The notes under the pieces are model-generated. The model searched no databases and was not told where the DNA came from. It worked only from the letters and a program-made list of their open reading frames with translations. 64,000 nucleotides of DNA from the human T2T-CHM13v2.0 reference genome, Homo sapiens, in assembly GCF_009914755.1 (NCBI RefSeq), contig NC_060927.1; one strand, written 5' to 3'. Below are positions 31,545-46,436 of the stretch, piece by piece (position 1 is the stretch's first letter; every line of letters begins with the position of its first letter). A program made the position numbers and the translations under genes.

Positions 31545-32103
31545 AACACTCAGTCTAATGTTCCTTCTTAAAAGATAATAGGTGTGTTTTCCTTTACCTC
31601 TATTTAAGAATTTATCTTTACCTTTAATTTTAAAGAGTACTAATACATTAGACATGCCTATTTGTCACTTACTTTCTATTCCTAGAAAGCAAATTCTGTT
31701 TAGGTTCCTAGCACTTCTTGAATCTGCAGATTGATATCTTTCATCATTTTGGAAAATCATAGGCATCATCATATGAAGGATTGCTTTTGCCATTCTTTTT
31801 CCTTTGCGATTTCCAAGACTCAAATTATGGATATGTTAAATATCTTCGTCATATCTCATCATATCTTCATCAAGTCTCTTACATTCTATTTTTTTTTAAT
31901 TATACTTTAAGTTTTAGGGTACACGTGCACATTGTGCAGGTTAGTTACATATGTATACATGTGCCATGCTGGTGCGCTGCACCCACTAACTCGTCATCTA
32001 GCATTAGGTATATCTCCCAGTGTTATCCCTCCCGCCTCCCCCCACCCCACAACAGTCCCCAGAGTGTGATATTCCCCTTCCTGTGTCCATGTGATCTCAT
32101 TGT

Positions 32104-35100
32104 TCAATTCCCACCTATGAGTGAGAATATGCGGTGTTTGGTTTTTTGTTCTTGCGATAGTTTACTGAGAATGATGATTTCCAATTTCATCCATGTCCCT
32201 ACAAAGGACATGAACTCATCATTTTTTATGGCTGCATAGTATTCCATGGTGTATATGTGCCACATTTTCTTAATCCAGTCTATCATTGTTGGACATTTCG
32301 GTTGGTTCCAAGTCTTTGCTATTGTGAATAATGCTGCAATAAACATACGTGTGCATGTGTCTTTATAGCAGCATGATTTATAGTCCTTTGGGTATATACC
32401 CAGTAATGGGATGGCTGCGTCAAATGATATTACCAGTTCTAGATCCCTGAGGAATCGCCACACTGACTTCCACAATGGTTGAACTAGTTTACAGTCCCAC
32501 CAACAGTGTAAAAGTGTTCCTATTTCTCCACATCCTCTCCAGCACCTGTTGTTTCCTGACTTTTTAATGATTGCCATTCTAACTGGTGTGAGATGGTATC
32601 TCATTGTGGTTTTGATTTGCATTTCTCTGATGGCCAGTGATGATGAGCATTTTTTCATGTGTTTTTTGGCTGCATAAATGTCTTCTTTTGAGAAGTGTCT
32701 GTTCATGTCCTTCGCCCACTTTTTGATGGGGTTGTTTGTTTTTTTCTTGTAAATTTGTTTGAGTTCATTGTAGATTCTGGACGTTAGCCCTTTGTCAGAT
32801 GAGTAGGTTGCGAAAATTTTCTCCCATGTTGTAGTTTGCCTGTTCACTCTGATGGTAGTTTCTTTTGCTGTGCAGAAGCTCTTTAGTTTAATTAGATCCC
32901 ATTTGTCAATTTTGTCTTTTGTTGCCATTGCTTTTGGTGTTTTAGACATGTCCTTGCCCATGCCTATGTCCTGAATGGTAATGCCTAGGTTTTCTTCTAG
33001 GGTTTTTATGGTTTTAGGTCTAACGTTTAAGTCTTTAATCCATTTTGAATTGATTTTTGTATAAGGTGTAAGGAAGCGTTCCAGTTTCAGCTTTCTACGT
33101 ATGGCTAGCCAGTTTTCCCAGCACCATTTATTAAATAGGGAATCCTTTCCCCATTGCTTGTTTTTCTCAGGTTTGTCAAAGATCAGACAGTTGTAGATAT
33201 GCGGCGTTATTTCTGAGGGCTCTGTTCTGTTCCATTGATCTATATCTCTGTTTTGGTACCAGTACCATGCTGTTTTGGTTACTGTAGCCTTGTAGTATAG
33301 TTTGAAGTCAGGTAGTGTGATGCCTCCAGCTTTGTTTTTTTGGCTTAGGATTGACTTGGTGATGCGGGGTCTTTTTTGGTTCCATATGAACTTTAAAGTA
33401 GTTTTTTCCAATTCTGTGAAGAAAGTCATTGGTAGCTTGATGGGGATGGCATTGAATCTGTAAATTACCTTGGGCAGTATGGCCATTTTCACGATATTGA
33501 TTCTTCCTACCCATGTGCATGGAATGTTCTTCCATTTGTTTGTATCCTCTTTTATTTCACTGAGCAGTGGTTTGTAGTTCTCCTTGAAGAGGTCCTTCTC
33601 ATCCCTTGTAAGTTGGATTCCAAGGTATTTTATTCTCTTTGAAGCAATTGTGAATGGGAGTTCACTCATGATTTGGCTTTCTGTTTGTCTGTTGTTGGTG
33701 TATAAGAATGCTTGTGATTTTTGTACATTGATTTTGTATCCTGAGACTTTGCTGAAGTTGCTTATCAGCTTAAGGAGATTTTGGGCTGACACAATGGGGT
33801 TTTCTAGATATACAGTCATGTCATCTGCAAACAGGGACAATTTGACTTCCTCTTTTCCTAATTGAATACCCTTTATTTCCTTCTCCTGCCTAATTGCCCT
33901 GGCCAGAACTTCCAACACTAAGTTGAATAGGAGTGGTGAGAGAGGGCATCCCTGTCTTGTGCCAGTTTTCAAAGGGAATGCTTCCAGTTTTTGCCCATTC
34001 AGTATGATATTGGCTGTGGGTTTGTCATAGATAGCTCTTATTATTTTGAAATACGTCCCATCAATACCTAATTTATTGAGAGTTTTTAGCATGAAGGGTT
34101 GTTGAATTGTCAAAGGCTTTTTCTGCATCTATTGAGATAATCATGTGGTTTTTGTCTTTGGCTCTGTTTATATGCTGGATTACATTTATTGATTTGCGTA
34201 TATTGAACCAGCCTTGCATCCCAGGGATGAAGCCCACTTGATCATGGTGGATAAGCTTTTTGATGTGCTGCTGGATTCGTTTTGCCAGTATTTAATAGAG
34301 GATTTTTGCATCAATGTTCATCAAGGATATTGGTCTAAAATTCTCTTTTTTGGTTGTGTCTCTGCCAGGCTTTGGTATCAGAATGATGCTGGCCTCATAA
34401 AATGAGTTAGGGAGGATTCCTTCTTTTTCTATTGATTGGAATAGTTTCAGAAGGAATGGTACCAGTTCCTCCTTGTACCTCTGGTAGAATTTGCCTGTGA
34501 ATCCCTCTGGTCCTGGACTCTTTTTGGTTGGTAAGCTATTGATTATTGCCACAATTTCAGATCCTGTTATTGGTCTATTCAGAGATTCAATTTCTTCCTG
34601 GTTTAGTCTTGGGAGAGTGTATGTGTCGAGGAATTTATCCATTTCTTCTAGATTTTCTAGTTTATTTGCATAGAGGTGTTTGCAGTATTCTCTGATGGTA
34701 GTTTGTATTTCTGTGGGATCGGTGGTGATATCCCCCTTATCATTTTTTATTGCGTCTATTTGATTCTTCTCTCTTTTTTTCTTTATTAGTCTTGCTAGCA
34801 GTCTATCAATTTTGTTGATCCTTTCAAAAAACCAGATCCTGGATTCATTAATTTTTTGAAGGGTTTTTTGTGTCTCTATTTCCTTCAGTTCTGCTCTGAT
34901 TTTAGTTATTTCTTGCCTTCTGCTAGCTTTTGAATGTGTTTGCTCTTGCTTTTCTAGTTCTTTTAATTGTGATGTTAGGGTGTCAATTTTGGATCTTTCC
35001 TGCTTTCTCTTGTGGGCATTTAGTGTTATAAATTTCCCTCTACACACTGCTTTGAATGCGTCCCAGAGATTCTGGTACGTTGTGTCTTTGTTCTCGTTGG

Positions 35101-43880: not shown

Positions 43881-44190
43881 GTTACTATTGTTTTTATTTT
43901 ATCTTTTTCCACTGGACACTTCTCCTGATACACATAGTAGAGTTTTTCATTCCAATTTCTTAAAAATTATTTGATTCTGTTTCTTTTCTCAAACTGCTAT
44001 GCTAACTGTTCCATTCCATTGAGGGCCAAACTTTTCAAAAGAAGTTTACAGTTGTTACTCCTCTCATTTATTGCCTAATCCATGGAGTCTGGGCATATTA
44101 GCCTTGTCTGTGTACTGAAAAATCTTTCTTGAACTCACACTCCACTTGCTAAACCCACTGGACTTTACTTGTTATACATTTCTTTAGAAT

Positions 44191-46436
44191 GATGCAGAAA
44201 AGGCCTTTGACAAAGTTCTACAACCCTTCATGCTAAAAACTCTCAGTAAATTAGGTATTGATAGTACGTATCTCAAAATAATAAGAGCTATCTATGACAA
44301 ACCCACAGCCAATATCATACTGATTGGGCAAAAACTGGAAGCATTCCCTTTGAAAACTGGCACAAGACAGGGATGCCCTCTCTCACCACTCCTATTCAAC
44401 ATAGTGTTGGAAGTTCTGGCCAGGGCAATCAGGCAGGAGAAGGAAATAAAGGGTATTCAATTAGGAAAAGAGGAAGTCAAATTGTCCCTGTTTGCAGATG
44501 ACATGACTGTGTATCTAGAAAACCCCATCATCTCAGCCCAAAATCTCCTTAAGCTGATAAGCAACTTCAGCAAAGTCTCAGGATACAAAATCAATGTACA
44601 AAAATCACAAGCATTCTTATACACCAATAACAGACTAACAGAGAGCCAAATCGTGAGGGAACCCCCATTCACAATTGCTTCAAAGAGAATAAAATACTTA
44701 GGAATCCAGCTTACAAGGGATGTGAAGGACCTCTTCAAGGAGAACTACAAACCACTGCTCAATGAAATAAAAGAGGATACAAACAAATGGAAGAACATTC
44801 CATGCTCATGGATAGGAAGAATCAATATCGTGAAAATGGCCATACTGCCCAGGGCAATTTATAGATTCAATGCCTTCCCTATCAAGCTACCAATGACTTT
44901 CTTCACAGAATTGGAAAAAACTACTTTAAAGTTCATATGGAACCAAAAAAGAGCCCGCATTGCTAAGTCAATCCTAACCAAAAGAACAAAGCTGGAGGCA
45001 TCATGCTACTTGACCTCAAACTATACTACAAGGCTACAGTAACCAAAACAGCATGGTACTGGTACCAAAACAGAGATATAGAACAATGGAACAGAACAGA
45101 GCCCTCAGAAATAATGCCACGTATCTACAACTGTCTGATCTTTGACAAACCTGAGAAAAACAAGCAATGGGGAAAGGATTCCCTATTTAATAAATGGTGC
45201 TGGGAAAACTGGCTAGTCATACGTAGAAAGCTGAAACTGGATCCCTTCCTTACACCTTATACAAAAATCAATTCAAGATGGATTAAAGACTTAAATGTTA
45301 GACCTAAAACCATAAAAACCCTAGACGAAAACCTAGGCAATACCATTCAGGACATAGGCATGGGCAAGGACTTCATCTCTAAAACACCAAAAACAATGGC
45401 AACAAAAGCCAAAATTGATAAATGGGATCTAATTAAACTAAACAGCTTCTGCACAGCAAAAGAAACTATCATCAGAGTGAACAGGCAACCTACAGAATGG
45501 GAGAAAATTTTTGCAATCTACTCATCTGACAAAGGGCTAATATCCAGAATCTACAATGAACTCAGACAAATTTATAAGAAAAAAACAAACAACCCCATCA
45601 AAAAGTGGGCAAAGGATATGAACAGATGCTTTTCAAAAGAAGACATTTATGCAGCCAAAAGACACATGAAAAAATGCTCATGATCACTGGACATCAGAGA
45701 AATGCAAATCAAAACCACAATGAGATACCATCTCACACCAGTTAGAATGGTGATAATTAAAGAGTCAGGAAACAACAGGTGCTGGAGAGGATGTGGAGAA
45801 ATAGGAACACTTTTACACTGTTGGTGGGACTGTAAACTAGTTCAACCATTGTGGAAGTCAGTGTGGCGATTCCTCAGGGATCTAGAACTGGTAATACCAT
45901 TTGACCCAGCCATCCCGTTACTGGGTATATACCCAAAGGATTATAAATCATGCTGCTATAAGGACACATGCACACATATGTTTATTGTGGCACTATTCAC
46001 AATAGCAAAGACTTGGAACCAACCGAAATGTCCAACAATGATAGACTGGATTAAGAAAATGTGGCACATATACACCATGGAATACTATGCAGCCATGAAA
46101 AATGATGAGTTCATGTCCTTTGTAGGGACATGGATAAAGCTGGAAACCATCATTCTCAGCAAACTATCGCAAGGACAAAAAACCAAACACCGCATATTCT
46201 CACTCATAGGTGGGAAATTGAACAATGAGAACACATGGACACAGGAAGGGGAACATCACACACCGGGGCCTGTTGTGGGGTGGGGGGATGGGGGAGGGAT
46301 AGCATTAGGAGATATACCCAATGTTAAATGACGAGTTAATGGGTGCAGCACACCAACGTGGCACATTATACATCTGTGACAAACCTGCACATTGTGCACA
46401 TGTACCCTAAAACTTAAAATATGATAATAATAAAAA
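44191..46436 (+). mobile_element. 5'-truncated LINE-1 (L1PA4/5-type 3' end), ORF2 RT and C-terminal part, disrupted
   Basis: Starts GATGCAGAAAAGGCCTTTGAC; ORF pieces 44230-45042, 45003-45683, 45702-46331; 3'UTR aacatcacacaccggggcctg...gttaaatgacgagttaatgg; no clear TSD. Confidence 0.95.

What the first reader, a model, noticed from the sequence alone, without database searches (positions are those of the whole stretch)
31888..46436. Inverted L1 pair sharing private mutations: ectopic gene conversion or a recurrent (toggling) inversion
Seen: L1-A (minus, 31888-34130 portion) and L1-B (plus, 44191-46436) form a 2.2-kb inverted repeat around a ~10 kb spacer. Their 3'UTRs are of different type (A: GGAATATCACACTCTGGGGACT..GCTAGATGACGAGTTAGTGG; B: GGAACATCACACACCGGGGCCT..GTTAAATGACGAGTTAATGG), so they look like independent insertions. 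Yet both carry the same six departures from the L1 consensus as I recall it, at five sites: DDM-T-VY (33815/44507), IYN-C-LI (33188/45133), I-R-RKL (33099/45222), the double change CTAGAACT-G-G-T-AATA (32432,32434/45890,45892) and AACC-G-AAATG (32299/46025). Subfamily differences persist between these sites (ITIQ/NTIQ, KDKID/KAKID, TTWEK/TEWEK). Inference: short patchy gene-conversion tracts, as expected when inverted repeats pair repeatedly, which is also the substrate for NAHR inversions. The matching TSDs of A imply the orientation shown is ancestral or has flipped an even number of times. A flip would reverse the L1 5'UTR promoters and create a hybrid full-length L1.
Basis: partly seen in the sequence, partly recalled or inferred. 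Interest (0 to 1): 0.8.

Follow-up and report, generated by a model that had tools for sequence, protein, structure and literature searches.

The report
Patchy gene conversion between neighbouring L1s
Two L1 retrotransposon copies of different age, lying head to head about 10 kb apart on human chromosome 3, share a handful of rare bases that are best explained by short copy-and-paste repair between them, a known process, with no sign that the DNA between them has flipped.

Summary
L1-A (minus strand, full length, 31888-37904) and L1-B (plus strand, 5'-truncated, 44188-46436) form a 2.25 kb inverted repeat, 94.2% identical, 10,054 bp apart. All six alleles are present in both. Among 58 other genomic copies they are minority alleles: 7, 12, 3, 8, 0 and 2 of 58.

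A belongs to a young subfamily and B to an older one, differing as expected at 36 diagnostic columns. The double change CTGGTAATA occurs at only 6 places in the genome. Four are young-type copies related to A; B is the only old-type copy carrying it. B's A-specific excess of shared alleles ranks first of 480 young x old pairs.

Best reading: short-tract ectopic gene conversion, A to B at least at that site (confidence 0.8).

The toggling-inversion reading is not supported:
- No hybrid or reciprocal blocks: 0 of 46 diagnostic columns.
- A's target-site duplication is intact.
- A T2T-based inversion call set has no call here.

Caveats: a GENECONV-like fragment test is not significant, and the direction at sites 2, 3 and 6 is open. 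This is a known kind of event, of modest interest.

The parts
31888..37904 (-). L1-A: full-length (~6.0 kb) young-type L1 with a poly-A of 9 (seen as T9 at 31888-31896). Both ORFs are interrupted.
   Evidence: It is 97.0-98.0% identical over 2.25 kb to 29 other genomic copies and sits in the crown clade of the tree.
31888..34133 (-). Arm of the inverted repeat within L1-A (3' part of ORF2 plus 3'UTR)
44188..46436 (+). L1-B: 5'-truncated 2.25 kb older-type L1, the other arm of the inverted repeat. Reading frame broken into three pieces.
   Evidence: It is about 93-95% identical to every other copy examined and differs from the old-type majority at 60 columns.
31878..31887 (.). Left copy of A's target-site duplication (CTTACATTCT), abutting the poly-T
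37907..37916 (.). Right copy of A's target-site duplication (CTTATATTCT), 2 bp from A's 5' end
37905..44187 (.). Unique spacer between A's 5' end and B. With A's 5' 3.8 kb it makes up the 10,054 bp between the repeat arms.
44431..44510 (+). Candidate tract T1 in B (at most 80 bp; A 33891-33812) holding site 1 (44507 C)
   Evidence: Bounded by a retained old-type allele at 44430 and a B-private base at 44511.
45122..45295 (+). Candidate tract T2 in B (137-174 bp; A 33199-33026) holding site 2 (45133 G), 45155 G, site 3 (45222 C) and 45269 C. No subfamily difference persists inside it.
   Evidence: Inside it are 1 B-private and 3 A-private differences.
45763..45916 (+). Candidate tract T3 in B (3-154 bp; A 32561-32408) holding sites 4 and 5 (45890 G, 45892 T). 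Direction is A to B.
45994..46096 (+). Candidate tract T4 in B (1-103 bp; A 32330-32228) holding site 6 (46025 G). Direction open; could be coincidence.
46175..46214 (+). Weak candidate tract T5 in B (1-40 bp; A 32149-32110) holding 46196 A (young-type allele; old-type copies G in 15 of 15)

Best explanation
A and B are independent L1 insertions of different age. B is the older, truncated one. A is a younger full-length copy that landed about 10 kb away in the opposite orientation. After A arrived, one or more DNA breaks in B were repaired by homologous recombination without crossover, using A on the same chromosome as template. This is inferred to be synthesis-dependent strand annealing or heteroduplex repair. 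Short patches of A's sequence were copied into B in 4-5 places across 1.7 kb (B 44507-46196). It was either several events or one long heteroduplex repaired in patches. Because the outcome was non-crossover, the orientation of the 10 kb between them did not change.

Shown here: the allele sharing, its specificity to A, the direction at sites 4/5, and the absence of crossover products. Inferred: the repair pathway, the number of events and the tract lengths.
For: 1. Independent origins. In a tree of 60 copies, A lies in the young crown clade and B on a long branch in the older part. There are 36 diagnostic columns with A young-type and B old-type along the whole arm.

2. All six alleles are present in both copies and rare or minor elsewhere.

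3. Genome-wide 18-mer counts at sites 4/5 are 18,192 for A.A, 1,277 for G.A and 6 for G.T. The 6 are A, B and four copies on other chromosomes. Those four are 96.0-97.1% identical to A and 92.5-93.7% to B, and 3 of 4 share A's 32034 C. G.T is therefore inherited in a small young sub-lineage. B is the only old-type carrier, and it lies 13 kb from A.

4. B differs from the old-type majority at 60 columns. Nine match A, against a mean of 3.97 (maximum 6) for 29 other young copies. The A-specific excess of 5.03 ranks first of 480 young x old pairs, with the next at 3.41 and an SD of 0.88. Shared alleles that are at most 25% or 35% frequent in the young set number 5 and 6, in each case the single top pair of 480.

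5. In B 45122-45295, four A-type alleles lie together, two of them young-subfamily diagnostics, and no subfamily difference persists.

6. The shared alleles sit in longer A-B identity runs than random positions: runs ranked 1, 2, joint 3 and 5 of 120, P = 0.007.

7. The window holds no other young L1 that could be the donor.

8. Literature, passages read. Gene conversion among neighbouring Alus acts within about 10 kb and on stretches from about 10 nt (PMC8230782). L1-templated conversion tracts as small as 13 bp, and an intrachromosomal conversion within an L1 locus, are described (PMC1920257).
Against: 1. A GENECONV-like fragment test is not significant. The longest A-B identity run (134 bp) is equalled or exceeded in 64 of 448 young x old pairs, and the top-3 sum in 60 of 448. 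B has runs of up to 182 bp with other young copies. The tract limits are therefore post hoc.

2. B's three young-diagnostic alleles are not unusual on their own. Other old-type copies match young copies at 0.2-7.3 deviant columns on average.

3. With a strict rarity cut (at most 10% in the young set), B-A scores 3, tied with 3 other pairs of 480.

4. An unrelated old-type copy on contig 8 (L065; 22 of 23 strong diagnostics old-type) also has site 2 G and site 6 G. Site 6 G occurs on 48 old-background and 14 young-background exact 44-mers. So these two sites could be coincidence, or B's own alleles passed to A.

5. GC bias is only suggestive: 5 of 23 weak-to-strong against 1 of 20 strong-to-weak, Fisher P = 0.19.

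6. Patches are very short, with retained old-type alleles between sites 5 and 6 (45941, 45993). This needs several events or patchy repair.

7. The 58 comparison copies were those ranked best by the search tool (40 scored of 16,409 and of 9,136 candidates). They are not a random sample.
Confidence: 0.8

Rival explanations
1. Coincidence plus lineage structure. B acquired the same bases by independent mutation or inherited them from its own minor sub-lineage, and A inherited or mutated to them separately. No exchange took place between the two copies.
For: Young x old pairs share 0-4 rare alleles by chance. One unrelated old copy shares two of the six. Site 3 C and site 6 G occur at 202 and 122 places genome-wide. 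Sites 1, 2 and 4 are common polymorphisms in A's subfamily. The fragment-length test is not significant.
Against: B-A is the single top pair of 480 on three measures. The G.T double change needs two specific substitutions 2 bp apart on an old-type background. It is seen in no other old-type copy, against 18,192 + 1,277 copies with the other forms, and it occurs 13 kb from one of only five young carriers. The six-site haplotype is unique to A and B among 60 copies.
Confidence: 0.1
2. Recurrent (toggling) NAHR inversion. Repeated crossovers between the inverted L1s flipped the 10-14 kb segment an even number of times, and the exchanged alleles are by-products.
For: The geometry allows it: a 2.25 kb inverted repeat 10 kb apart. 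L1PA pairs do mediate inversions, for example HsInv0341 with L1PA3 repeats (PMC3961182 table) and human-chimpanzee inversions (PMC2603318). Conversion itself shows that the two copies have paired.
Against: No hybrid element: A is young-type and B old-type at 36 of 36 expected diagnostic columns spread over the whole arm. There are 0 reciprocally swapped columns of 46, which two crossovers at different points would leave. A's target-site duplication is paired in place; the swapped pairing gives only a 7-mer on one side and nothing at the junction on the other. No inversion call appears at chr3:6.48 Mb among the 11 chr3 rows of a T2T-based call set with 44 sample columns (PMC10150506 Table S1). 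An identity of 94% is low for crossover (established knowledge: mismatch repair suppresses it).
Confidence: 0.05
3. Assembly or polishing artefact. Reads from A were used to correct B.
For: None found here. It is listed only because the two copies are near each other and similar.
Against: The arms differ at 137 of 2255 aligned columns, far above what confuses long accurate reads (established knowledge). The shared alleles are isolated single bases among retained differences, not a collapsed block.
Confidence: 0.02

Closest known systems
Non-allelic (ectopic, interlocus) gene conversion between neighbouring dispersed repeats, best documented for Alu elements
   Same: Short patches of one copy's private or subfamily alleles appear in a nearby copy of a different subfamily. 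The distance (about 10 kb) and identity (94%) lie within the ranges quoted for Alu-Alu conversion, with the younger element as donor (PMC8230782 passages).
   Different: These are L1s, not Alus. The pair is inverted. Several very short patches are spread over 1.7 kb rather than one tract replacing a monomer or a whole element. The evidence comes from one haplotype with no outgroup.
L1 gene conversion: repair of breaks in LINE sequence from other LINE copies, and conversion of pre-existing L1s
   Same: One L1 sequence serves as repair template for another. Very short tracts (13 bp) and an intrachromosomal donor are described (PMC1920257 passages citing Tremblay et al. 2000).
   Different: Those cases were cell-culture repair events or whole-segment replacements. 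Here the event is a fixed or germline patchy exchange between two identified neighbours. The Tremblay paper itself is not held. Reports that young Ta L1s are partly converted by older L1s are recalled, not seen.
Retrotransposon-mediated NAHR inversions (L1-L1 inverted pairs; InvFEST-type polymorphic inversions)
   Same: The same substrate geometry: inverted L1PA copies flanking 10-20 kb (PMC3961182; PMC2603318).
   Different: No crossover product, no hybrid L1 and no inversion call at this locus. The known mediating pairs listed there are longer (4.7-6.2 kb).

Membership tests
Ectopic (interlocus) gene conversion | Two paralogous sequences of independent origin | tested here: met
   Different clades in the tree; 36 diagnostic columns; different 3'UTR types, 88% identity at the 3' end
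Ectopic (interlocus) gene conversion | The acceptor carries donor-specific alleles against its own phylogenetic background | tested here: met
   G.T occurs at 6 genome places, and B is the only old-type carrier. The A-specific excess ranks first of 480 pairs.
Ectopic (interlocus) gene conversion | Transfer is non-reciprocal | tested here: met
   0 columns of 46 diagnostic ones where A has the old allele and B the young allele
Ectopic (interlocus) gene conversion | Statistically long shared fragment (GENECONV-type test) | tested here: not met
   The longest run of 134 bp is equalled in 64 of 448 control pairs. Only the placement of shared alleles in long runs is significant, P = 0.007.
Ectopic (interlocus) gene conversion | The pre-conversion state is seen in an orthologue or another haplotype | not testable with these tools
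   Only one human assembly is searchable; no ape genomes are held
NAHR inversion between inverted repeats (recurrent or toggling) | Inverted repeats flank the segment | tested here: met
NAHR inversion between inverted repeats (recurrent or toggling) | Hybrid repeats or reciprocally exchanged blocks left by crossovers | tested here: not met
   36 columns as expected, 0 reversed
NAHR inversion between inverted repeats (recurrent or toggling) | Target-site duplications swapped between the two elements | tested here: not met
   A's 10 bp duplication (9 of 10 matching) is paired in place. The swapped comparisons give a 7-mer on one side and no junction match on the other. B has no detectable duplication.
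NAHR inversion between inverted repeats (recurrent or toggling) | Both orientations are present in the population | tested here: inconclusive
   No call near chr3:6.48 Mb in one T2T-based call set (PMC10150506 Table S1). Other catalogues and pangenomes were not seen.

The most novel reading that the evidence does not exclude
The two L1s pair repeatedly, and exchange has gone both ways. A gave B its lineage alleles (sites 1, 4, 5 and the tract around 45155-45269). The dead fragment B gave the full-length A its own alleles at sites 2 and/or 6, which also occur in another old-type copy. That would make this a locus where at least 4 separate conversion events accumulated in the time since A inserted. 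Rare crossover (inverted) haplotypes might then still be found in larger human samples.
Probability: 0.12. Interest if true: 0.5.

Novelty: new member of a known kind. Interest (0 to 1): 0.33.

Why it matters
This is a clean, single-locus example showing that old and young L1 copies about 10 kb apart exchange a few bases at a time. There are three practical consequences. Such exchange blurs subfamily assignment and age estimates based on divergence. It can move alleles between dead and full-length elements. It marks pairs that physically interact and are therefore candidates for rearrangement. None of this is new in principle: conversion between neighbouring repeats and L1-mediated inversion are both described. 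The value lies in a worked case with direction established at one site, and in showing that allele sharing here does not imply inversion.

Tried and rejected
1. The search tool's first tables suggested that A matched other copies only over bases 1-1634, and B only from base 344. That hinted at chimeric elements. Local BLAST of the fetched loci showed full-length matches, so this was an artefact of the tool skipping common words.

2. My first expectation was that the six alleles are simply ancestral L1PA states. This is rejected: old-type copies almost uniformly carry the other alleles.

3. I asked whether the four other G.T copies are progeny of A, which would make A an active source. This is rejected: they carry older alleles than A at 32094 and 32071 and lack A's other private bases.

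4. The run-length (GENECONV-like) test is not significant.

5. The GC-bias test is not significant.

Co-occurrence was instead checked by comparing coordinates across the listed places. The site 3 list is cut at contig 7 and the site 6 list lacks its last 22 places, so that check is partial.

7. No target-site duplication was found for B.

9. Paper searches found no description of this locus. 'LOC105376944' gave 2 unrelated papers. Searches on L1 gene conversion and inversion gave only general literature.

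Full report
**What is there.** The window is human chr3 (T2T-CHM13), as the hub states. 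L1-A lies on the minus strand from 31888 (poly-A seen as T9) to 37904, where the reverse complement of the L1 5' start abuts unique sequence. That is about 6.0 kb, so it is full length. Read from stop to stop, its ORF1 region is split in two and its ORF2 in three pieces, so neither reading frame is intact. L1-B lies on the plus strand at 44188-46436. It is 5'-truncated within ORF2, ends in a short A-rich tail, and its frame is also broken. The only other L1-like piece in the window is an old fragment at 52121-52688, 76% identical to A.

**The observation.** The inverted repeat is real. Four collinear arm pairs are 88-96% complementary. BLAST gives 94.2% identity over about 2,250 bp with 120-121 mismatches and 7 gaps. 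The arms are 10,054 bp apart.

**Comparison set.** The window's own genome could be searched. I fetched the 29 best-scoring other copies for B and the 29 best for A (40 scored of 16,409 and of 9,136 candidates). This sample is chosen by similarity and is not random. The search tables showed partial matches, but local BLAST showed full-length matches. A is 97.0-98.0% identical to 29 copies, while B is about 93-95% identical to everything. A maximum-likelihood tree has the ladder shape usual for L1, with A in the young crown clade and B on a long branch in the older part.

I call these groups young (29 copies), middle (10) and old (15). Against them:
- A has 30 private columns and B has 69.
- 36 columns separate young from old, with A and B each carrying their own group's base.
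- 0 columns are reversed.

A's ORF2 fragment aligns to the L1HS ORF2 protein of the PDB with about 28 differences in 668 residues. L1HS has I, Y, C and E at the four coding sites in question. I take A to be L1PA2/3-like and B to be an older L1PA. That naming rests on divergence and on a recalled 3'UTR diagnostic, not on a tool.

**Are the shared alleles special?** Among the 58 other copies the six alleles occur in 7, 12, 3, 8, 0 and 2 copies, and the combined haplotype occurs only in A and B. They are not ancestral states, because old-type copies almost uniformly carry the other bases. They are not all private either. Site 1 C, site 2 G and site 4 G segregate within the young group at 6, 10 and 7 of 29.

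The decisive site is 4/5. Genome-wide counts of the 18-mer are:

| Form at sites 4/5 | Places in the genome |
|---|---|
| A.A | 18,192 |
| G.A | 1,277 |
| G.T | 6 |

The six G.T places are A, B and four copies on contigs 1, 1, 8 and 13. I fetched about 800 bp of each of the four. They are 96.0-97.1% identical to A and 92.5-93.7% to B. Three of the four share A's rare 32034 C. G.T is thus a one-step derivative of G.A, inherited by a small young sub-lineage that includes A. B, an old-type copy on an A.A background, is the only outsider carrying it, and it lies 13 kb from A. This fixes the direction at this site as A to B.

**Controls.** For each of 16 old-type copies I listed the columns where it departs from the old-type majority. 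I then counted how many of those match each of 30 young copies.
- B departs at 60 columns. Nine match A, against a mean of 3.97 and a maximum of 6 for the other young copies.
- The A-specific excess is 5.03, first of 480 pairs. The next pair scores 3.41 and the SD is 0.88.
- Counting only alleles at most 25% or 35% frequent in the young group, B-A scores 5 and 6, each time the single highest of 480.
- At a cut of 10% or less it scores 3, tied with three other pairs.

In B 45122-45295, four A-type alleles lie together and no subfamily difference persists.

**Results that do not support the reading.**
- The longest A-B identity run (134 bp) is equalled in 64 of 448 control pairs, and B has longer runs with other young copies. 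A GENECONV-type test therefore fails and my tract limits are post hoc.
- The only run-length support is that the shared alleles fall in the longest runs (ranks 1, 2, joint 3 and 5 of 120; P = 0.007).
- B's young-diagnostic alleles alone are unremarkable, since other old copies show similar numbers.
- GC bias is 5 of 23 against 1 of 20, P = 0.19.
- Site 3 C and site 6 G occur at 202 and 122 places genome-wide. The site 2 haplotype occurs at 92.
- One unrelated old-type copy on contig 8 has both site 2 G and site 6 G.
- Site 6 G is found on 48 old-background and 14 young-background 44-mers.

Sites 2 and 6 may therefore be coincidence, or B's own alleles passed to A. The direction there, and at site 3, is open.

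**Inversion.** A crossover within the arms would join part of a young element to part of an old one. Two crossovers at different points would swap a block reciprocally. Neither is seen, with 36 diagnostic columns as expected along the whole arm and 0 reversed. A's 10 bp target-site duplication (9 of 10 matching) flanks A in place. The swapped pairings give a 7-mer on one side and nothing at the junction on the other. B has no detectable duplication. In Table S1 of a T2T-CHM13-based inversion call set (PMC10150506; 44 sample columns), the 11 chr3 rows start at 21.2 Mb or beyond, and none is near 6.48 Mb. I saw only that table, not other catalogues. This haplotype shows no trace of a flip, and the one call set seen shows no polymorphism.

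**Mechanism.** The best reading is non-crossover homologous repair of breaks in B using A as an intrachromosomal template. It left 4-5 short patches over 1.7 kb, from either several events or one heteroduplex repaired in patches. The pathway is inferred. The 6% divergence would be expected to suppress crossover (established knowledge of mismatch-repair anti-recombination), which fits conversion without inversion.

**Known context.** From passages read:
- Conversion among neighbouring Alus acts within about 10 kb, on stretches from about 10 nt, often from younger to older elements (PMC8230782).
- L1-templated conversion tracts as short as 13 bp, and an intrachromosomal conversion inside an L1 locus, are reported (PMC1920257).
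- L1PA pairs mediate polymorphic and human-chimpanzee inversions (PMC3961182; PMC2603318).
- L1-L1 pairs flank 219 deletions in 1,019 long-read genomes (PMC12350158).

Searches for this locus or its lncRNA found nothing relevant.

**Verdict.** Gene conversion is supported (0.8), and the toggling inversion is not (0.05). This is a new instance of a known process and of modest interest.

Noticed in passing
window 37700-37921 (+), inside and just beyond L1-A's 5' end at 37904: Per the hub's gene table, exon 1 of lncRNA LOC105376944 starts about 205 bp inside A's 5'UTR on the antisense strand and ends 13-17 bp into the flank. It looks like a transcript driven by the L1 antisense promoter. RefSeq 'enhancer' features (36915-38387) and the GC peak of 0.54 at 37000-37999 cover the same 5'UTR.
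   Followed up: partly
L024, L025, L026 (G000 contig 18: 139779-141685, 85733-87639, 31717-33623): Three copies of the same L1 segment show no differences from one another in the alignment. They share 29 minority alleles pairwise and sit about 54 kb apart near the start of contig 18, so they appear to be part of a large tandem or segmental duplication.
   Followed up: no
window 31888-37904 (-): L1-A combines markers of several young sub-lineages: site 1 C, site 2 G on a T background, and sites 4/5 G.T. Its sub-lineage mates L061-L064 carry older alleles at 32094 and 32071. The young L1 lineage looks reticulate at this scale, from recurrent mutation, recombination between source elements, or conversion.
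   Followed up: partly
window 52121-52688: An older L1 3' fragment, 76% identical to A, lies on the plus strand 5.7 kb beyond B.
   Followed up: no
Genome search output: The whole-genome DNA search reported truncated matches (1-1634, 344-2249) for copies that match full length in local BLAST. Partial coordinates from that tool should not be read as chimerism in highly repeated sequence.
   Followed up: yes
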